The notes under the pieces: model-generated | What the model was told of the DNA's origin: nothing | Database searches by the model: none | The model's input: only the letters and a program-made list of their open reading frames with translations | Shown: positions 15,201 through 35,394 of the stretch, one piece after another | Numbering within the stretch: the stretch's first letter is position 1 | How the letters are laid out: every line of letters begins with the position of its first letter | Program-made: the position numbers and the translations under genes | Virus genome (UHGV): UHGV-0391791 | DNA: 38,277 nucleotides | Source of the DNA: a virus | Strand: one strand, 5' to 3'

Positions 15201-15277
15201 GTGGCATTAGCTCAGTTGGACAGAGCAACCGCCTTCTAAGCGGTTGGTCGCAGGTTCGAATCCTGCATGCCACGCCA
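15201..15277 (+). tRNA. tRNA-Arg, anticodon UCU (reads AGA), phage-encoded, argU-like
   Basis: Manual cloverleaf: 7-bp acceptor stem GTGGCAT/ATGCCAC, D-arm GCTC/GAGC, anticodon stem ACCGC/GCGGT with loop CTTCTAA, T-arm GCAGG-TTCGAAT-CCTGC, discriminator G plus encoded CCA; 77 nt. Confidence 0.85.
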
Positions 15278-26936: not shown

Positions 26937-27236
26937 GTGAGAAAGTTAAGCCGACTTGAAAAATATCACATGAACAAGGTTTCAATGCGCAGTCCGTCAA
27001 AGATTGTCGCCGTTACTCCTGCGGCGATAGAGTTCGAAAAACGCGCAATTGAAAGAGAGAAAAAAGGACAGTTCCGCATTGCCGCTCACCTTTGGCTTAA
27101 GTGTATGGATGTTGCTTCTGGTGATGTTGAGCGTGCAAGGATCGCGGTTCGCAGGGACCAATGTATCACAAAAGGTAACGGCCTTCGCCGTGGCGACTAT
27201 AGCGGCATAGGATGTTGCGGGGTGGTTTATGACTAA
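26937..27236 (+). CDS. Hypothetical protein (99 aa), GTG start
   Basis: Track ORF; SD GAGAGGG upstream of GTG; overlaps the methyltransferase start. Confidence 0.4.
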   Translation: MRKLSRLEKYHMNKVSMRSPSKIVAVTPAAIEFEKRAIEREKKGQFRIAAHLWLKCMDVASGDVERARIAVRRDQCITKGNGLRRGDYSGIGCCGVVYD

Positions 27237-27879
27237 GAAATACACGCTAATCTATGCAGATCCACCCTGGGTATACCGGGACAAAGCCGCAGATGGTAAT
27301 CGCGGTGCCGGTTTTAAATATCCGGTTATGAGTGTGCTGGATATCTGCCGCCTTCCTGTGTGGGATTTGGCCGATGAAAACTGTCTGTTGGCCATGTGGT
27401 GGGTGCCAACACAACCACTCGAAGCACTAAAAGTTGTTGAAGCCTGGGGATTCCGTCTGATGACCATGAAGGGTTTCACGTGGATAAAATGTGGTAGTCG
27501 ACAACCAGATAAACTGGTTATGGGTATGGGACACATGACTCGCGCCAATAGTGAAGATTGCCTGTTTGCGGTAAAGGGAAAATTACCTACGCGCATTAAT
27601 GCAGGGATCGTTCAGTCATTTACCGCACCGCGGCTTGAGCATTCAAGAAAACCAGATGTCGTTCGTGAAAAACTTGTGCAATTGTTAGGCGATGTTTCTC
27701 GCATTGAACTGTTCGCCCGCCAGTCGTCTCATGGCTTCGATGTTTGGGGTAATCAGTGCGAAGACCCGGCAGTGCAACTACATCCTGGATACGCGTTGGA
27801 TATTGGCGGATTAACAAATGCATTCAGCAATGCTCCGCTGTCACCAACAGACAACCAGGGGCGGGAGCGTGCAGCATGA
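27229..27879 (+). CDS. MT-A70-family N6-adenine DNA methyltransferase (216 aa)
   Basis: Track ORF; catalytic motif DPPW (LIYADPPWVY) near the N-terminus. Confidence 0.8.
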   Translation: MTKKYTLIYADPPWVYRDKAADGNRGAGFKYPVMSVLDICRLPVWDLADENCLLAMWWVPTQPLEALKVVEAWGFRLMTMKGFTWIKCGSRQPDKLVMGMGHMTRANSEDCLFAVKGKLPTRINAGIVQSFTAPRLEHSRKPDVVREKLVQLLGDVSRIELFARQSSHGFDVWGNQCEDPAVQLHPGYALDIGGLTNAFSNAPLSPTDNQGRERAA

Positions 27880-29324: not shown

Positions 29325-29339
29325 AATTCACCCGTATAG

Positions 29340-29620
29340 AAACCATTTTCATGACGGTATGAGAGTATACCTTTAAGGTAATACCGTCACCTGTACCGCC
29401 GAAAAATATGGTGTAGAGTGAATAGAAATGAATACATAAAAACAAAAACCCTCTGCAAAAACAGAGGGTTGAGTTGGCATCTGAATAGGAATGATTTGCT
29501 ATGAGTTAGCTGTTAATCATTCCCACTCAATTATTTACGATACACATAAACAATTGACTGATAACAACTTTCTTCCAAATGATTTTCACCGTACCGTTTT
29601 ATATACCGTCACCGGAAATC
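29340..29620. other. Candidate attP: arm-type repeats TACCGTCACC (29382, 29604; inverted copy 29352; partial 29587) flanking a 9-bp inverted repeat GGAATGATT/AATCATTCC (29488..29523)
   Basis: Repeats read directly from the sequence; location adjacent to the integrase start. Confidence 0.35.
29438..29468 (-). terminator. Rho-independent terminator ending the leftward tailspike-lysis operon before the integrase
   Basis: Minus strand CCCTCTG-loop-CAGAGGG followed by TTTTTGTTTTT. Confidence 0.6.
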
Positions 29621-30116
29621 AGTGCCACGATTTTTGCTTCTTCAGTGAATCGTATTGCTGTTCGCAGGATTCTCCTGCAATCCGATACTTTTCAGCCTCA
29701 GCTGCTGTTGCGTTGTAAACTCGGTTGCTTTCTTCAAGCATGTCGGCGAGCACACCGATGACCTTGCTGGCTGGCGTGCCAGTGGGGAAAGATCCGGTAT
29801 AGTGTTCGGCGAGTCGCTTGGTTTTGTCAAGCTCGGCGCGCAGGCTGTCAGCAGCGGCATTAGCATGCTCAGCATCAACACGCGCCACATCGATACGGGA
29901 CTGTGCTTCACGTTCAATTTGTGTTTTCTCCTGATCACGTTGTGACCTGGCCTTATCATCAGCCTGTTTCTGATCTTCCTGTGCCTGCGCATACCCGGCG
30001 TCGTACTGACGACTGCCGTGTGCATTCCAGGCTACAACTCCTGATATGACCAGAACAGCAAGCATCGCCATGATAACCAACTGTTTCCAGTATGCTTTTG
30101 CGAATGCCCAGATCAT
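29619..30116 (-). CDS. i-spanin (Rz-like; 165 aa) with N-terminal TM helix and coiled coil
   Basis: Track ORF; N-terminal WKQLVIMAMLAVLVISGVVAW, charged helical body; follows the endolysin. Confidence 0.55.
   Translation of the reverse strand: MIWAFAKAYWKQLVIMAMLAVLVISGVVAWNAHGSRQYDAGYAQAQEDQKQADDKARSQRDQEKTQIEREAQSRIDVARVDAEHANAAADSLRAELDKTKRLAEHYTGSFPTGTPASKVIGVLADMLEESNRVYNATAAEAEKYRIAGESCEQQYDSLKKQKSWH
29642..29890 (-). CDS. o-spanin (Rz1-like lipoprotein) embedded in the +1 frame of the i-spanin gene
   Basis: Internal start of track ORF 29642..30025; lipobox LLTAC; Pro-rich mature region. Confidence 0.45.
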   Translation of the reverse strand: MWRVLMLSMLMPLLTACAPSLTKPSDSPNTIPDLSPLARQPARSSVCSPTCLKKATEFTTQQQLRLKSIGLQENPANSNTIH

Positions 30117-30742
30117 ACCGCCAGCACCTTACTGGCAGTGATGTACCGCGCGCGCCGGTCGTCGATGCCGTTCCGGCCACCATTGATAATCAGAGTTACA
30201 CGTGCAATATCGCCGGTATACTTCATGCATCCTTTGCTGGCAAAGAACCACGCCGCGCTACGAGCCGCGTATTCGTCCTGCGCCAGCAGTTCAGGACTCT
30301 CCAGCAGGTCAACCTTAAGACCGTTTCCACAGTCACGATAGTTATTCAAACCGGTAATCTGGATAAGTCCGCGACCACGGTAATTCCAGCCATCACCAGA
30401 GGCATTGTTACCCATGCGTTTGCTGTACACCAGATTTGCGATCGCGCGCTGGCGCTCAAGTGGCAATGGTGGCTCACCAGCACGGCGGCCCAGTGCGTTA
30501 GCCTGTCCCTGGGTGAGACGCCCAGCCCGAACGAAGTTAGCCAGTCCGGTGACGCTGTAGTTGAAATTTTCCTGCAACCGGTTGAAGCCACCAGACTCAT
30601 GCCCGACCTGAGCAATAAACATTGCCTGATCTTCGGGTTTGCTGATACCAAACTCTTTCATCGCAGAAGTTATATGCGAGAACCAGCGAGCGGCCAGCGC
30701 CTCGCTAATACCAGCAGCTCGCTGGAATTGTTTAATCTCCAT
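30113..30742 (-). CDS. Endolysin, glycoside hydrolase family 19-type (about 209 aa from MEIKQFQ)
   Basis: Track ORF 30113..30973; motifs VGHESGGF and NYRGRGLIQITGLNNY; internal ATG at 30742 has SD GAGGT, and the N-terminal extension overlaps the upstream membrane-protein gene. Confidence 0.8.
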   Translation of the reverse strand: MEIKQFQRAAGISEALAARWFSHITSAMKEFGISKPEDQAMFIAQVGHESGGFNRLQENFNYSVTGLANFVRAGRLTQGQANALGRRAGEPPLPLERQRAIANLVYSKRMGNNASGDGWNYRGRGLIQITGLNNYRDCGNGLKVDLLESPELLAQDEYAARSAAWFFASKGCMKYTGDIARVTLIINGGRNGIDDRRARYITASKVLAV

Positions 30743-31040
30743 GTTTAGACCTCGATATTTTGAAAATATGAACAACGTTACCGCGTGTTTTAATAACCGC
30801 GGCAAGCATGACAGCGTTGATAATGACCTCAGATAAATCCACAGCCATTGGCGTGCGTAACCAGATTGCATAGACGACACGAACAGGAATACTTGCCGCA
30901 GCAACAATAAGGAAATAAGCAAGCCACCCTCCCCATCTTCGATGTTGAGAGCCGTTACGCCGGAATGTGACAACGCGAATTGCTATGCCAGTACAAATAA
31001 CTGCATTGGTGATAAGCAAAAAAAACTCATGCGTTACCAT
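30732..31040 (-). CDS. Small membrane protein of the lysis cassette (102 aa; holin/antiholin candidate)
   Basis: Track ORF; about three hydrophobic segments; sits between the other membrane protein and the endolysin. Confidence 0.4.
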   Translation of the reverse strand: MVTHEFFLLITNAVICTGIAIRVVTFRRNGSQHRRWGGWLAYFLIVAAASIPVRVVYAIWLRTPMAVDLSEVIINAVMLAAVIKTRGNVVHIFKISRSKHGD

Positions 31041-31431
31041 CGTCTTTTCTCCCCGGAATTAACTCGCGTGGATTATCGGAACGGTGATAGAGCCAGATGC
31101 CAATACGCACGGCGACAATTGCTGACACGAATGCGCCTGCAGAGAAAACAATCCCTTTTTCAAAAGAGTCCTGCGTGATGGTAGGGATCAGGCTGGCTAT
31201 GCCGATAAGAATTGATGCTGCTGGTTTGTAAAAGAGAAGGCCGCAAAGAAAGCTGAGCATCGACAGGAGCACCCGGCGACGGATGGGGTACTCTACTGCA
31301 GAGGTAACAAAAATTACCGCCCCAGCCAAAGCCCCTAAAGCAACCTCCGGAGGGACACCTGCAATAACCGCAGCAAGAGAACTAACACTAAGCCACTGAT
31401 TTGAAGTTTCATTGGTTAGTTGGAATGACAT
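31027..31431 (-). CDS. Membrane protein (134 aa), holin candidate
   Basis: Track ORF; multiple hydrophobic helices; first gene after the tailspike. Confidence 0.45.
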   Translation of the reverse strand: MSFQLTNETSNQWLSVSSLAAVIAGVPPEVALGALAGAVIFVTSAVEYPIRRRVLLSMLSFLCGLLFYKPAASILIGIASLIPTITQDSFEKGIVFSAGAFVSAIVAVRIGIWLYHRSDNPRELIPGRKDDGNA

Positions 31432-31503
31432 AACGAAACCCGTTTATTTGCAAACACCCTGCTTCAGGAAAAGTATACCGCGCAACAACACACCATTTAC
31501 GGT

Positions 31504-33966
31504 TCAATTCCCTGTTAATTGCAAAACTTGCTCTTCCAGCTTTTTAACCCTGCGTCTCATCATCGCAGATTCCAGAATCAGAGCCTCTTCATAACGGATA
31601 CCGTAACATTCACCAGCCTCGACGGCTTCGCGTACCAGAACCTTTGTCTGTATAAGTGGGTAAACTCCTGCAGAATGCTCTTCTTCCGTCACATCCCTGT
31701 ATTCTGCCGGGGTCTCATTCCACTTGTCATAACAGATAAATGCCAGTCGTGACACATCTATGCCTTCATTCTGAAATACACTGATAACATGCTGCGCAAC
31801 TGCACCAAAGTGCCATCTTGCTCCGTCTTTACCTTTCACTTCGATCCTGTCAAGGTACTGGTATGAAACCCATTCCACTCTTTCCCATGCGTCCAGTATT
31901 TTCTCATCAATAACCTCTGGAGCAGTCTTGAAACGCGCATCGGACAGCACCGTAAACGCTGACTGGGTAAATCCCCCCGACCATGCACGACCAGCCAACC
32001 CAAGAGAATAAGTATTCGTTGTCGATGGTGTCATGGCTGAATCAGAAAACTGTATATATTCTGAATTTCCAGTAGATATTCGAATATTTCCATTTATTAG
32101 CGACATAGTGCCTTTAGTATTATCACTATTGAATAATTTCAATTGCGAACTTATACCGCCTCCCACAGCCAGAGATACATCGCCTTCAGCAAGCATTCTG
32201 AATTTATCTGCAGAAACAAGCGTCTGGTTAGCAAGGTTAAAATATTTAACCCACCATTCAAAACGCCCTGACATAGTCCCAACGTACTGACCAAGCGCAG
32301 GGACGTGAACAACATTGCTATTTGTAGTGCCGTCTATACTGGAAATACCAGTCACCGCTGATGCAGAACTCAGAATATTATTTCTGTCACCCGGATGTTT
32401 AATTTCAACAAAGTTCCTGATACACCCTTCCTCGAAGGTAACCACGCCGGAAGAACTATACATGGGGAATATTGACGCATAATTACTGCGTGCAGCATCT
32501 AAGAAACGAATGGTTGTAGATGTCTGCAGATCTCCTGATTCATTTTTCCCATCACACCCAGTCATTAGAATATTACTGGCAATATTATTATTTCCCTGAA
32601 CGGTGACTCCGTGCGCCTGCTTTGCGTCCGATTCAGAGTAATCAACCAGCACATTCGAAATCAGGTTACCAGTCCCCTTGCCAACAACTACTGCGGCGTA
32701 TTTTGGGTTGTTAGCCATTACACTGCTAATGATATTATTCGTTGGGGCAGTTTCCGTCTCAGTTCCATTGTAAACAACGTGCTGACACTCTTCACCAATA
32801 ACATTGCTGACAATGTTATATTTTGCTGCTGTTTTAAGTTCCACTGCACCAAACTGAGGATAATTTCTGGCTATCACACCATCAATTAGCGTATTTTGCG
32901 ATGAATCAAAAAGCACACAACCTGCTTTTTTATTATTTGCGAACCCTAAATACTCTCCTCTTATATCTCTAACAATGTAACCTGACGGAATACCATTATT
33001 CGGATAAGCGATCAAGCTAAATCCTGTTCCTCGCGTATTTGTAAATCTGATATTTTTAACCGATACATCATGGCCACCTGAAAATGACACCTGGTGTCCC
33101 TGCACACTATCATCTGATTTATTTCCCATAATTGTTAGCGTACTAAGCATGCCACCATCGGGCATGTTAAAAACCAGATGATTACCATCTCTGTCATACT
33201 GTTTTATCGTTCCCCCACCTGTTCCGTACAAGCCACAACGTGAAAGAGAAACTAAAGATGTATTGAATACCCCTTCCGGAACAAAAACACTGCTAAACGA
33301 ATGTAATGATTTTGTAAAAGCATCCTTGTTATCATTTAAGATTCCATTTTGAGCTCCAAAATCCTTAATGCTGACACCATCACGCATCTTATCCTGGAAC
33401 GTTCTGTATACCGCTCCAGAACCATACTGAATAAACCAACCAAAACCACCAATAACTCCGGCGATTGCAGCATCGACATAATTACGCATTGAGCGATTAT
33501 TTACAGCGTCCTGCTCAAGTGATGGATCGGCAAGGTTAGATATTCTGTTTTGCTTTGCATCGTAATATTTTGCAAGCAAAGATGGTTTCATCAATGCACG
33601 TCTGAACCACCCAAAACATCGCTGGATCAGCATCGTCAGGTAGTCAAATGCATCCTCATGAACTTCGGGGAAAAATTTTCCCTGATTGCGAAGATCAGTC
33701 TCCTGCACCACATCAAGCACACGCTCTATCGTGATTCGCCAGCCAGCAGCAAGCGGCGACGGAAGAACCACTGCACCGCCACTATAAGTTCCCGCCCCTG
33801 TTACCGTATAACCAGCATCCAGCACTAGTTTTGTAACGTTACCGTTAAGGTCAGACACCTGAACAACCAGGTCGGATTTTTTGAAAATACGGAAGGTATA
33901 CGGAAATGATGTCGTAACGCCGTTACCTGTGTATTCGTTGTGGTCAACTTCGGTTGAGACCGTCAT
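31504..33966 (-). CDS. Tailspike / tail fibre (820 aa) with C-terminal intramolecular chaperone (peptidase S74-like) domain
   Basis: Track ORF; Asn/Gly/Ser-rich central region; C-terminal block ...SDARFKTAPEVIDEKILDAWERVEWVSYQYLD...GARWHFGAVAQHV typical of self-cleaving chaperone domains. Confidence 0.8.
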   Translation of the reverse strand: MTVSTEVDHNEYTGNGVTTSFPYTFRIFKKSDLVVQVSDLNGNVTKLVLDAGYTVTGAGTYSGGAVVLPSPLAAGWRITIERVLDVVQETDLRNQGKFFPEVHEDAFDYLTMLIQRCFGWFRRALMKPSLLAKYYDAKQNRISNLADPSLEQDAVNNRSMRNYVDAAIAGVIGGFGWFIQYGSGAVYRTFQDKMRDGVSIKDFGAQNGILNDNKDAFTKSLHSFSSVFVPEGVFNTSLVSLSRCGLYGTGGGTIKQYDRDGNHLVFNMPDGGMLSTLTIMGNKSDDSVQGHQVSFSGGHDVSVKNIRFTNTRGTGFSLIAYPNNGIPSGYIVRDIRGEYLGFANNKKAGCVLFDSSQNTLIDGVIARNYPQFGAVELKTAAKYNIVSNVIGEECQHVVYNGTETETAPTNNIISSVMANNPKYAAVVVGKGTGNLISNVLVDYSESDAKQAHGVTVQGNNNIASNILMTGCDGKNESGDLQTSTTIRFLDAARSNYASIFPMYSSSGVVTFEEGCIRNFVEIKHPGDRNNILSSASAVTGISSIDGTTNSNVVHVPALGQYVGTMSGRFEWWVKYFNLANQTLVSADKFRMLAEGDVSLAVGGGISSQLKLFNSDNTKGTMSLINGNIRISTGNSEYIQFSDSAMTPSTTNTYSLGLAGRAWSGGFTQSAFTVLSDARFKTAPEVIDEKILDAWERVEWVSYQYLDRIEVKGKDGARWHFGAVAQHVISVFQNEGIDVSRLAFICYDKWNETPAEYRDVTEEEHSAGVYPLIQTKVLVREAVEAGECYGIRYEEALILESAMMRRRVKKLEEQVLQLTGN

Positions 33967-34142: not shown

Positions 34143-34162
34143 ATTGCATGGAGAAGATTAAG

Positions 34163-34420
34163 ATGCAGCAGTATCACTATCCACTGGAAGAGGGATTTAC
34201 CGAAAGGATTCACACGCCGGGAGGCGTCAGGTCACTGGTGGAGGGATCGCACTTGATGAAATTACTCCGGGATCTCGATAAGGATGGATTTAATGTCGAT
34301 GGCCCACTTGCCGAACTGACTGCACTGATTAACTACGTCACCAGCTCACAGATGTCTATGCAGGATCTGCAAACACATCTCGACTATTGTGCCGAACAAT
34401 TACGAAAACAAACCAGATAA
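34163..34420 (+). CDS. Small protein homologous to the C-terminal domain of the downstream antirepressor (about 85 aa from MQQYHYP); candidate SOS-induced antirepressor
   Basis: In-frame part of track ORF 34148..34420; SD GGAGAAG; IHTPGGVRSLVEGSHLMKLLRDLDKDGFNVDGPLAELTALINY aligns with [43 protein letters not shown] of 34738..35394. Confidence 0.5.
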   Translation: MQQYHYPLEEGFTERIHTPGGVRSLVEGSHLMKLLRDLDKDGFNVDGPLAELTALINYVTSSQMSMQDLQTHLDYCAEQLRKQTR

Positions 34421-34737: not shown

Positions 34738-35394
34738 ATGAACGCTCAACTCATCCCCGTATTCAACGGCACTATATCTAACGAAACAGCCCTACTTTGT
34801 AATGCCCGCGATCTGCACGCTTTTTTAGGTGTTAAAAAGGTGTTTGCAGCATGGATTACAAATCGCATATCAGAATACGAATTCATTGAAAATCAAGACT
34901 ATATTTTGCTTTCCAATTTGGGAAAGCAAACATCTGGTAGAGGCGGCCACAACCGCAAAGAGTACCACCTCACCCTTGATACAGCCAAAGAGCTGGCGAT
35001 GGTCGAGCGTAACGAAAAAGGTCGCCAGGTGCGACGCTACTTCATTGAATGCGAGAAACGTTTAAGACAACAAGAAACAAAAGTGGAGAAGGTCTTGTCA
35101 GGCTTCATGCCCGCCATTATGGAGGCGATCAAGCTGGAAGACAAAAAAGAATACAGTGCCCCACTGAAGCCCGGCTACCGCAGCCTGATTCACTCGCCGT
35201 CTGGTGTTCTCGGCCTGACGGAGAACTCACTGCTGATGAATCTGCTGAACCAGTTACAGGACGACGGGCACGACGTATCGGGCGCGGCGGCGGAGCTGAC
35301 CACCATGTTCTGCTACATCGTTGGTGTGAGCAAATGCCTGCGTGATATCCAGACGCACGCGGAGTACATCAACGACAAGGCAGGGTTCTTCTGA
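34738..35394 (+). CDS. Antirepressor (218 aa), AntA/AntB-type N-terminal domain plus C-terminal domain shared with 34163..34420
   Basis: Track ORF; N-terminal segment ...[30 protein letters not shown]...[42 protein letters not shown] recalled as antirepressor-type; SD GGAGA. Confidence 0.65.

What the first reader, a model, noticed from the sequence alone, without database searches (positions are those of the whole stretch)
29619..30116. Embedded spanin pair in a lysis cassette with two membrane proteins and a GH19 endolysin
An Rz1-like lipoprotein ORF (lipobox LLTAC, Pro-rich) lies entirely within the +1 frame of the Rz-like gene. The cassette has two multi-TM proteins upstream of the endolysin, possibly holin plus antiholin or a pinholin variant. 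This is standard biology but is easily missed by gene callers.
Basis: partly seen in the sequence, partly recalled or inferred. Interest (0 to 1): 0.2.

Follow-up and report, generated by a model that had tools for sequence, protein, structure and literature searches.

The report
Embedded Rz/Rz1 spanin gene pair
The last gene of this phage's host-lysis cassette hides a second, out-of-frame gene for a small outer-membrane lipoprotein; the pair is a textbook lambda-type "spanin", already catalogued in this phage group, although automatic annotation pipelines still miss the hidden gene.

Summary
Window 29619-30116 (- strand) encodes a 165-aa Rz-like i-spanin (Pfam DUF2514, PHROG 312). It has one N-terminal transmembrane helix and a helix-linker-helix periplasmic domain. 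A 91-codon o-spanin (Rz1) gene lies wholly inside it in the +1 frame, at 29642-29917. Its lipobox is LLTA|C, Ala follows the lipidated Cys, and the 66-aa mature protein has 8 Pro and a CxPTC motif.

The most likely start is TTG 29917, not the first ATG of the open frame. That position is TTG or ATG, with AGGAG 10 nt upstream, in all 63 distinct relatives. The lipobox Cys, the ORF length (91 codons in 62 of 63) and the mature-protein Cys positions are also kept. A shared motif persists in phages whose Rz is only 29-42% identical.

The window is an epsilon15/phiV10-like (Uetakevirus) E. coli phage genome. Its cassette is Phage_holin_8 protein, Phage_holin_3_7 holin, GH19 endolysin (SPN1S 4OK7-like, no signal or SAR domain), then Rz/Rz1. 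Kongari et al. 2018 already list epsilon15, phiV10 and SPN1S spanins as embedded, so this is ordinary, known biology. The pinholin suggestion is not supported.

Side notes: this spanin allele is a mosaic replacement relative to phiV10, and its Rz1 is absent from a 15-billion-protein collection.

The parts
29619..30116 (-). Rz-like i-spanin gene (165 aa): N-terminal TMD (about residues 12-30), helix to residue 106, linker 107-114, second helix 115-161, single periplasmic Cys151
   Evidence: ORF. Pfam DUF2514 83.3 bits against a cutoff of 26. phrog_312 Rz-like spanin E 1.2e-52. Hydropathy. AlphaFold2 single-sequence model, pLDDT 82.7.
29642..29917 (-). Embedded Rz1-like o-spanin gene in the +1 frame of Rz (91 codons, TTG start): signal peptide MNVKHSPVSMWRVLMLSMLMPLLTA|C, mature 66-aa lipoprotein with Ala at +2, 8 Pro, Cys31/Cys35 (CSPTC)
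   Evidence: phrog_11621 E 5e-25. The start position is TTG or ATG in 63 of 63 distinct relatives and homologous to the annotated phiV10 start. The lipobox rule is passed in 63 of 63. Conserved in distant DUF2514 phages.
29888..29890 (-). Alternative in-frame ATG start of Rz1 (gives the 16-aa signal peptide MWRVLMLSMLMPLLTA|C and the same mature product)
   Evidence: This ATG is lost in 7 of 63 distinct relatives, and no Shine-Dalgarno sequence lies upstream.
29928..29932 (-). AGGAG Shine-Dalgarno-like sequence 10 nt upstream of the TTG start of Rz1 (also codes Q-E in Rz)
   Evidence: Present in all 63 distinct relatives.
30113..30742 (-). GH19-type endolysin (209 aa), soluble, no signal or SAR segment; its stop overlaps the Rz start (ATGA)
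   Evidence: Pfam Glyco_hydro_19 36.1 bits against a cutoff of 25.5. phrog_181. Full-length match to the SPN1S endolysin 4OK7, E 6e-115. No TM-like window.
30732..31040 (-). Holin candidate (102 aa, Phage_holin_3_7): three hydrophobic segments and a basic C-terminal tail; overlaps the endolysin start by 11 nt
   Evidence: Pfam PF05449 95 bits. phrog_217 holin. Hydropathy.
31027..31431 (-). Second membrane protein (134 aa, Phage_holin_8; epsilon15 gp23-like): 3-4 hydrophobic segments; candidate antiholin, holin regulator or second holin; overlaps the next gene by 14 nt
   Evidence: Pfam PF16931 46.4 bits. phrog_198 holin. Hydropathy. The AF2 model has low confidence. The pairing with Phage_holin_3_7 is kept in Hafnia phage yong2 at 35% identity.
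29447..29470 (-). Rho-independent terminator-like hairpin plus T-run about 150 nt downstream of Rz, closing the lysis operon in the phage (non-integrated) form
   Evidence: Terminators are annotated at the homologous place in phiV10 and epsilon15.

Best explanation
This is a two-component spanin of the lambda Rz/Rz1 kind. It forms the distal end of the late lysis cassette of an epsilon15/phiV10-like (Uetakevirus) temperate E. coli podophage. The outer gene makes a type II inner-membrane protein (i-spanin). Its periplasmic part is two long helices joined by a short linker. The inner gene is read in the +1 frame from its own TTG start (or the ATG nine codons later). It makes a prolipoprotein that signal peptidase II cleaves before Cys26, which is lipidated. 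Because residue +2 is Ala rather than Asp, the Lol pathway sorts it to the outer membrane (o-spanin). The two proteins bind through their C-terminal regions and bridge the periplasm. A holin (most likely the Phage_holin_3_7 protein, with the Phage_holin_8 protein as partner or regulator) permeabilises the inner membrane. The soluble GH19 endolysin then destroys the murein, and the freed spanin complexes fuse or disrupt the inner and outer membranes to complete lysis. Shown here: gene anatomy, family membership, the signal and lipobox features, conservation of the embedded frame, and the cassette context. Inferred from knowledge of lambda Rz/Rz1: lipidation, OM sorting, complex formation, disulfide-linked dimers and membrane fusion.
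For: Rz matches DUF2514 and phrog_312, and the embedded ORF matches phrog_11621 (lysis). Rz has one N-terminal TMD and a helix(2-106)-linker-helix(115-161) model at pLDDT 82.7. The embedded ORF is in frame +1 and spans 0.40-0.95 of the Rz length. Kongari et al. report that typical embedded o-spanins occupy 0.4-0.5 L to 0.9-1 L (PMC6139136). Across 63 distinct relatives, all keep the lipobox, the mature Cys positions (1, 31, 35) and a TTG/ATG start with AGGAG upstream, and 62 keep the 91-codon length. The +1 frame upstream of the start is interrupted by stops at varying positions and evolves neutrally (pN/pS 1.09). In the overlap it falls to 0.87, and Rz-frame synonymous divergence halves from 0.35 to 0.16. 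The motif IPxLSPxARQPxRxxxCxP[TS]C is shared by embedded ORFs of ST46, Tbat1_6, JenP2 and Lana at 29-42% Rz identity. A lipobox context arises by chance in 5 of 20000 shuffles. phiV10, epsilon15 and Tyrion carry annotated Rz1 genes at the same place. epsilon15, phiV10, TL-2011b and SPN1S are listed as embedded spanins in Tables 3 and 4 of PMC6139136. The pair sits immediately after the endolysin with an ATGA overlap, followed by a terminator.
Against: No experiment exists on this allele, and no expression, lipidation or lysis phenotype can be tested here. The selection signal on the +1 frame is modest (pN/pS 0.87), as expected for a largely unstructured protein locked to a second frame. The start codon is not settled between TTG 29917 and ATG 29890. 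The AGGAG lies 10 nt from the TTG, at the long end of usual spacing, and its conservation may partly reflect Rz coding. The mature o-spanin aligns with phiV10 Rz1 only over a 21-residue core (52% identity, E 1e-4 in a pairwise comparison). Which membrane protein is the holin is not known.
Confidence: 0.93

Rival explanations
1. The embedded open frame is a by-product of Rz's amino-acid composition and is not translated. Rz alone, or another protein, handles the outer membrane.
For: Stop-free +1 runs of at least 129 codons appear in about 10% of synonymous-codon shuffles of Rz. The +1 frame pN/pS of 0.87 is only mildly below neutral. No gene caller has ever called this ORF in the large protein collection.
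Against: The lipobox, Cys positions and start codon are invariant in 63 of 63 distinct relatives, and the 91-codon length holds in 62 of 63, although Rz1 identity falls to 33%. A conserved motif persists at 29-42% Rz identity, including in a Pseudomonas phage. A lipobox context arises by chance in 0.025% of shuffles. The ORF hits PHROG 11621 at E 5e-25. Rz-frame synonymous divergence is suppressed only in the overlap.
Confidence: 0.02
2. The pair is real, but Rz1 starts at ATG 29890 (82-aa precursor with a 16-aa signal peptide) rather than TTG 29917, or both starts are used.
For: ATG is the stronger initiator. MWRVLMLSMLMPLLTA|C is a complete, short lipoprotein signal that also passes the PS00013-type constraints (Cys17, Arg3; sequence). 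The ATG is present in 56 of 63 relatives.
Against: The ATG is lost in 7 of 63 relatives, whereas TTG/ATG at 29917 is universal. That position has AGGAG upstream and corresponds to the annotated ATG start in phiV10 and epsilon15. No Shine-Dalgarno sequence lies before 29890. The mature lipoprotein is the same either way.
Confidence: 0.3
3. The two upstream membrane proteins form a pinholin / SAR-endolysin system (phage 21 type) rather than a canonical large-hole holin system.
For: Two small multi-TM proteins precede the endolysin. The functions of Phage_holin_8 and Phage_holin_3_7 are only 'putative' in Pfam.
Against: A pinholin system needs an endolysin with an N-terminal SAR transmembrane segment. 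This endolysin has no hydrophobic window. It aligns from residue 1 with the soluble, crystallised SPN1S endolysin 4OK7.
Confidence: 0.04
4. Both membrane proteins are holins with redundant function, rather than a holin plus an antiholin or regulator.
For: Both hit holin-annotated families (PF16931/phrog_198 and PF05449/phrog_217). Neither gene shows a lambda-like dual start (sequences).
Against: The pair is retained in the same order in all Uetakevirus relatives and in Hafnia phage yong2 at about 35% identity. That retention argues for non-redundant roles, but this is inference only.
Confidence: 0.3

Closest known systems
phiV10 gp30/gp30a and epsilon15 p06/p07 (Rz-like / Rz1-like spanins; 'Bcep176' embedded spanin family of Kongari et al. 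2018)
   Same: Same genus-level phage and the same cassette order (membrane protein, holin, GH19 endolysin, Rz with embedded Rz1, terminator, attP, integrase). Rz1 is 91 codons, starts at the same Rz nucleotide (200) and ends at the same nucleotide (475). The Cys positions are the same.
   Different: This allele is strongly diverged: Rz 50% and Rz1 33% identical to phiV10, while the flanking endolysin (97.6%) and integrase (99.5%) are nearly identical. Rz1 starts with TTG instead of ATG, and Rz is 165 rather than 160 aa.
Enterobacter phage Tyrion spanins (BI095_gp27 / BIO95_gp56)
   Same: The closest annotated allele: Rz 74% and Rz1 66% identical, with the same embedded geometry.
   Different: The Tyrion record annotates a much longer o-spanin (420 nt) from an upstream start. 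In other relatives that start is excluded by in-frame stops.
Phage lambda Rz/Rz1
   Same: Embedded +1 architecture. The i-spanin has an N-terminal TMD and two helices joined by a linker. The o-spanin is a small Pro-rich OM lipoprotein. [quoted passage not shown]
   Different: No detectable sequence homology: the Pfam family is DUF2514, and no lambda-type Rz family was reported. The mature o-spanin is 66 aa rather than 40, with two Cys (CxPTC) instead of one. The i-spanin has one Cys instead of two. The endolysin is GH19 instead of a transglycosylase.
Salmonella phage SPN1S endolysin (PDB 4OK7)
   Same: Full-length match of the cassette's endolysin, E 6e-115, with no N-terminal export signal.
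   Different: A different host phage (Salmonella), and this comparison concerns only the neighbouring gene.

Membership tests
Two-component spanin, embedded architecture (lambda Rz/Rz1 type) | i-spanin with a single N-terminal transmembrane domain (type II, N-in / C-out) | tested here: met
   One hydrophobic window, residues 12-30 (KD 2.37), preceded by Lys7/Lys11 and followed by no other. It is helical in the AF2 model.
Two-component spanin, embedded architecture (lambda Rz/Rz1 type) | Periplasmic domain of the i-spanin made of two alpha-helical (coiled-coil) segments joined by a linker | tested here: met
   AF2 gives helix 2-106, a break at 107-114 (TGSFPTGT) and helix 115-161, with mean pLDDT 82.7. 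Coiled-coil oligomerisation itself was not tested.
Two-component spanin, embedded architecture (lambda Rz/Rz1 type) | o-spanin with a signal peptidase II lipobox and an invariant Cys | tested here: met
   LLTA|C with Cys26. A PROSITE PS00013-type rule is passed in the window and in 63 of 63 distinct relatives. SignalP and LipoP were not available.
Two-component spanin, embedded architecture (lambda Rz/Rz1 type) | Outer-membrane sorting (no Asp at +2 of the mature lipoprotein) | tested here: met
   The +2 residue is Ala in the window. Among relatives it is Ala 59, Ser 3 and Arg 1, never Asp.
Two-component spanin, embedded architecture (lambda Rz/Rz1 type) | o-spanin gene wholly inside the i-spanin gene in another frame, typically from 0.4-0.5 L to 0.9-1 L | tested here: met
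   Frame +1, Rz nucleotides 200-475 of 498 (0.40-0.95 L). The criterion comes from PMC6139136.
Two-component spanin, embedded architecture (lambda Rz/Rz1 type) | Location in a lysis cassette next to the endolysin and holin | tested here: met
   The order is holin_8, holin_3_7, GH19 endolysin, Rz/Rz1, with overlapping gene junctions of 14, 11 and 4 nt.
Two-component spanin, embedded architecture (lambda Rz/Rz1 type) | Periplasmic Cys residues available for homotypic intermolecular disulfides | tested here: met
   Rz Cys151 is conserved in ST46, Tbat1_6, JenP2 and Lana. Mature Rz1 Cys31 and Cys35 are invariant in 63 of 63. Disulfide formation cannot be tested here.
Two-component spanin, embedded architecture (lambda Rz/Rz1 type) | Rz-Rz1 complex formation and a requirement for outer-membrane disruption | not testable with these tools
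   This needs genetics (Rz-silent Rz1 nonsense alleles), pull-downs and microscopy.
Pfam DUF2514 (PF10721) | Score above the gathering threshold | tested here: met
   83.3 bits against 26, covering profile positions 1-160 of 161.
'Bcep176' spanin families of Kongari et al. 2018 (at least 40% identity over at least 40% of the periplasmic sequence) | i-spanin criterion against a listed member (phiV10) | tested here: met
   52% identity over 160 aa, E 2e-52. The divergence is concentrated in the periplasmic part, which was not scored separately.
'Bcep176' spanin families of Kongari et al. 2018 (at least 40% identity over at least 40% of the periplasmic sequence) | o-spanin criterion against a listed member (phiV10) | tested here: inconclusive
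   BLASTP aligns only 21 of 66 mature residues (32% of the length) at 52% identity. Homology is nevertheless clear from position, the motif and phrog_11621. Other listed members were not compared.
GH19 phage endolysin (SPN1S type) | Glyco_hydro_19 domain and a full-length match to a solved endolysin | tested here: met
   PF00182 at 36.1 bits against 25.5. 4OK7 at E 6e-115 over residues 1-208.
Pinholin / SAR-endolysin system | Endolysin with an N-terminal signal-anchor-release transmembrane segment | tested here: not met
   No hydrophobic window in the endolysin. The N-terminus aligns with the soluble 4OK7 chain.
Holin (Phage_holin_3_7, PF05449; Phage_holin_8, PF16931) | Family score above threshold, small size, at least one TMD, charged C-terminus | tested here: met
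   95 bits against 25.4 and 46.4 bits against 26.4. Both have three hydrophobic segments. The 102-aa protein has a basic tail and the 134-aa protein a mixed-charge tail (sequences). Hole-forming activity and the TM count of the 134-aa protein remain undetermined, because its AF2 pLDDT is 54.

The most novel reading that the evidence does not exclude
At the depth of Pfam DUF2514, homologous spanin pairs occur in both 'embedded' and 'overlapped' gene architectures. The window, epsilon15/phiV10, ST46, Tbat1_6 and Lana are embedded. In JenP2 (9g-like) the homologous o-spanin runs 31 nt past the i-spanin stop. Within Uetakevirus, the periplasmic part of Rz plus all of Rz1 is exchanged as one recombination unit between otherwise near-identical genomes. 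Together these would give a concrete case of architecture conversion. They would also show co-inherited interaction modules, which the 2018 survey (families defined at 40% identity or more) reported not finding for embedded families.
Probability: 0.5. Interest if true: 0.25.

Novelty: already known. Interest (0 to 1): 0.1.

Why it matters
Practically, it is an annotation fix. In E. coli prophages and phage records carrying this allele, the o-spanin is not annotated: PGAP calls only a 'DUF2514 family protein'. The exact Rz1 sequence is absent from a 15-billion-protein collection, although Rz is seen on at least 1000 contigs. No NCBIfam model matched either spanin. Anyone engineering these phages, or using the cassette for lysis, needs both genes and must avoid 'silent' edits inside Rz. 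Biologically it adds nothing new to spanin mechanism. It does add a well-documented second allele, with a TTG start, in the epsilon15/phiV10 group.

Tried and rejected
(1) The first ATG of the embedded ORF (30025; 127 aa) and the ATGs at 29992 and 29959 were considered as Rz1 starts. They were rejected because several relatives have +1-frame stops as late as codon 55, the upstream +1 translation is unconserved, and the Cys would lie too far from the N-terminus for a lipoprotein signal.

(2) Open-frame length was tried as evidence of coding. It was rejected as weak, since 10% of synonymous shuffles reach it, and was replaced by lipobox-context and conservation tests.

(3) The antisense ORF 29655-29945 (+, 96 aa) showed no support. 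Open-run lengths in that frame vary from 56 to 167 codons among relatives.

(4) The NCBIfam scan gave no significant model for any of the five cassette proteins.

(5) The single-sequence AlphaFold2 model of the 134-aa membrane protein had pLDDT 54, too low to settle 3 versus 4 TM helices.

(6) Literature searches for experiments on Phage_holin_3_7 / Phage_holin_8 or on epsilon15/SPN1S holins found only family listings.

(7) No tRNA gene lies at the attachment site. The only tRNA is Arg(tct) at 15201-15277.

(8) The large homology searches (search for homologous proteins, the search of protein representatives) were not run. The viral-contig and phage-record relatives already answered the conservation question.

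Full report
**What is at the coordinates**

The interval 29619-30116 is exactly one ORF on the minus strand, encoding 165 aa. It matches Pfam DUF2514 over the whole profile (83.3 bits, cutoff 26). It also matches PHROG 312, 'Rz-like spanin', at E 1.2e-52.

Hydropathy shows a single N-terminal transmembrane segment at residues 12-30. A single-sequence AlphaFold2 model (mean pLDDT 82.7) gives a helix from 2 to 106, a break at 107-114 (TGSFPTGT) and a second helix at 115-161. This is the TMD, helix, linker, helix layout described for lambda Rz (PMC6139136).

**The embedded frame**

A stop-free run in the +1 frame lies entirely inside this gene, and its stop is at 29642. The segment from 29884 down hits PHROG 11621 (category lysis, 'Rz-like spanin') at E 5e-25.

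The mature protein after the Cys has these features:
- It is 66 aa long, with 8 Pro and 16 Ser/Thr.
- Ala is at position +2, which is compatible with outer-membrane sorting under the E. coli +2 rule (established knowledge).
- It has two further Cys, in a CSPTC motif.

**Is it more than chance?**

Length alone is not convincing. In 20000 synonymous-codon shuffles of Rz, 2064 gave a +1 open run at least as long as observed. A hydrophobic stretch followed by a lipobox and a tail of at least 30 residues arose in only 5 of 20000.

Conservation is decisive. I fetched 80 viral-contig relatives plus phiV10, epsilon15 and Tyrion, which gave 63 distinct nucleotide sequences of the gene. Their properties are:
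- All 63 have the lipobox Cys at the same position, and 62 of 63 have a 91-codon ORF measured from the common start (the other has 96).
- All 63 have the mature Cys positions 1, 31 and 35, and all pass a PROSITE PS00013-type lipoprotein rule.
- Upstream of the start, the +1 frame is broken by stops at varying positions and evolves neutrally (pN/pS 1.09).
- Inside the overlap, the +1 pN/pS falls to 0.87, and synonymous divergence in the Rz frame halves from 0.35 to 0.16. This is the signature of a second constraint.

The embedded lipoprotein frame also persists in distant DUF2514 phages whose Rz is only 29-42% identical. These are Salmonella ST46, Tbat1_6, coliphage JenP2 and Pseudomonas phage Lana. 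They share a recognisable motif, IPxLSPxARQPxRxxxCxP[TS]C.

**Start codon**

The first ATG of the open frame (30025) is not the start. Several relatives have in-frame stops up to codon 55 of the +1 frame.

The codon at 29917 is TTG in 61 and ATG in 2 of the 63 sequences. AGGAG lies 10 nt upstream in every one. The position coincides with the annotated ATG start of phiV10 and epsilon15 Rz1. The ATG at 29890 is absent in 7 of 63 and has no Shine-Dalgarno sequence.

I therefore place Rz1 at 29642-29917 (91 codons, 25-aa signal peptide). ATG 29890 is a possible alternative or additional start. Both give the same mature lipoprotein.

**Context**

The window is an almost complete epsilon15/phiV10-like (Uetakevirus) coliphage genome. 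It is 98% identical over most of its length to phages phiv142-3, PAS61 and ZX5. The lysis cassette reads, on the minus strand:

| Coordinates | Product | Evidence |
|---|---|---|
| 31027-31431 | 134-aa Phage_holin_8 protein | |
| 30732-31040 | 102-aa Phage_holin_3_7 protein | |
| 30113-30742 | 209-aa GH19 endolysin | |
| 29619-30116 | Rz, with Rz1 embedded at 29642-29917 | |
| 29447-29470 | terminator-like hairpin | |

Other points about the cassette:
- Successive genes overlap by 14, 11 and 4 nt.
- The endolysin start is ATG 30742, not the longest-ORF TTG 30973.
- The endolysin aligns from residue 1 with the crystallised SPN1S endolysin 4OK7 (E 6e-115).
- The endolysin has no hydrophobic N-terminal segment. 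It therefore needs a canonical holin, and the 'pinholin variant' idea is not supported.

The 102-aa protein has three hydrophobic segments, an Arg-rich first loop and a basic C-terminal tail. This is a class I holin-like layout inferred from the positive-inside rule. The 134-aa protein has three or four hydrophobic segments, and its AF2 model was too poor to decide (pLDDT 54).

Both proteins are kept in the same order in all Uetakevirus relatives. They are also kept in Hafnia phage yong2 at about 35% identity. That phage has the full module: Phage_holin_8, Phage_holin_3_7, GH19 endolysin, and an i-spanin with an embedded +1 lipoprotein. This argues that the two have distinct roles, for example holin plus antiholin or regulator. 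I found no experiment on either family.

**Comparison with what is known**

phiV10 and epsilon15 records annotate an Rz1 of the same length at the same position. Kongari et al. 2018 list Bcep176, SPN1S, TL-2011b, epsilon15 and phiV10 as one embedded i-spanin family and one embedded o-spanin family (PMC6139136, Tables 3 and 4). The same paper notes that gene callers usually miss embedded o-spanins.

That is the case here:
- An E. coli chromosome carrying an identical prophage has only a 'DUF2514 family protein' annotated.
- No NCBIfam model matches either spanin.
- None of three candidate Rz1 sequences exists in a 15-billion-protein collection, although the exact Rz sequence is recorded on at least 1000 contigs.

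The finding is therefore correct but already known in kind and in this phage group.

**Small additions**

Relative to phiV10, the spanin module is a mosaic replacement. Nucleotide identity is 45-68% over about 29540-30010 but 92-100% on both sides. Protein identities are integrase 99.5%, endolysin 97.6%, Rz 50% and Rz1 33%. The first 40 or so Rz residues, including the TMD, are nearly identical. So the periplasmic domain of Rz and all of Rz1 travel together, while start position, length and Cys positions are preserved. The closest annotated allele is that of Enterobacter phage Tyrion (Rz 74%, Rz1 66%).

In JenP2 the homologous o-spanin extends 31 nt beyond the Rz stop, which is an 'overlapped' architecture. 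Its relative 9g is listed as an overlapped singleton in the 2018 survey. At DUF2514 depth, embedded and overlapped forms therefore appear to be homologous.

**Verdict**

This is a genuine, conserved, embedded Rz/Rz1-type spanin pair at the end of a standard holin, endolysin, spanin cassette. The mechanism is inferred by analogy with lambda. Interest is low, and its value is mainly as an annotation correction.

Noticed in passing
window 29540-30010: Relative to phiV10, the spanin module is a mosaic replacement. Nucleotide identity is 45-68% here against 92-100% in both flanks. Protein identities are Rz 50% and Rz1 33%, against endolysin 97.6% and integrase 99.5%. The left breakpoint lies inside Rz just after the TMD, so the Rz periplasmic domain and Rz1 are exchanged as one unit.
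   Followed up: partly
L087 (Enterobacteria phage JenP2) 1995-2502: A DUF2514 Rz homologue (33% identical) carries a homologous +1-frame o-spanin that runs 31 nt past the Rz stop. This is an 'overlapped' architecture in a family that is otherwise embedded. Phage 9g is listed as an overlapped singleton in Kongari 2018.
   Followed up: partly
window 29642-29917 (Rz1) and 29619-30116 (Rz): The exact Rz protein is on at least 1000 contigs of a 15-billion-protein collection, always named DUF2514. None of three possible Rz1 versions (91, 82 or 127 aa) is present. PGAP omits Rz1 in an identical E. coli prophage.
   Followed up: yes
window ~29515 (attP region 29325-29618); L084 2886-3000: E. coli chromosomal matches to the prophage begin at window 29515, next to yfgI, so the att crossover lies there. 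The lysis-operon terminator (29447-29470) lies on the other side of the crossover and is separated from Rz in the lysogen. The host flank carries a hairpin with the same stem (CCCTCTG/CAGAGGG).
   Followed up: partly
L089 (Hafnia phage yong2) 2501-4297: This phage has the same five-gene module (Phage_holin_8, Phage_holin_3_7, GH19 endolysin, weakly DUF2514-like i-spanin with an embedded +1 lipoprotein ORF) at about 35% identity. The embedded o-spanin and the i-spanin are annotated only as 'hypothetical' or not at all.
   Followed up: partly
window 31432-33966: The tailspike gene (31504-33966, -, phrog_14895/1171) lies directly upstream of the lysis cassette. In phiV10 and epsilon15, O-antigen modification genes (oac; serotype-conversion genes) sit between the tail fibre gene and the lysis genes. 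This phage lacks them at that position.
   Followed up: no
window 15201-15277 (+): A tRNA-Arg (anticodon TCT) gene is the only tRNA in the window.
   Followed up: no
window 34148-34420 and 34738-35394 (+): Two neighbouring ORFs share anti-repressor (Ant) C-terminal family hits (phrog_450, 15539, 1760). The longer one is a full Ant-like protein (phrog_377), which suggests a partial duplication.
   Followed up: no
window 27229-27879 (+): A DNA methyltransferase (phrog_359, DPPW motif) lies two genes from the integrase, on the opposite strand.
   Followed up: no
L003 (Enterobacter phage Tyrion) 1736-2155: The RefSeq o-spanin CDS of Tyrion is annotated as 420 nt from an upstream start. Comparison with relatives suggests the conserved TTG start 144 nt downstream, giving the same 91-codon gene as in the window.
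   Followed up: partly
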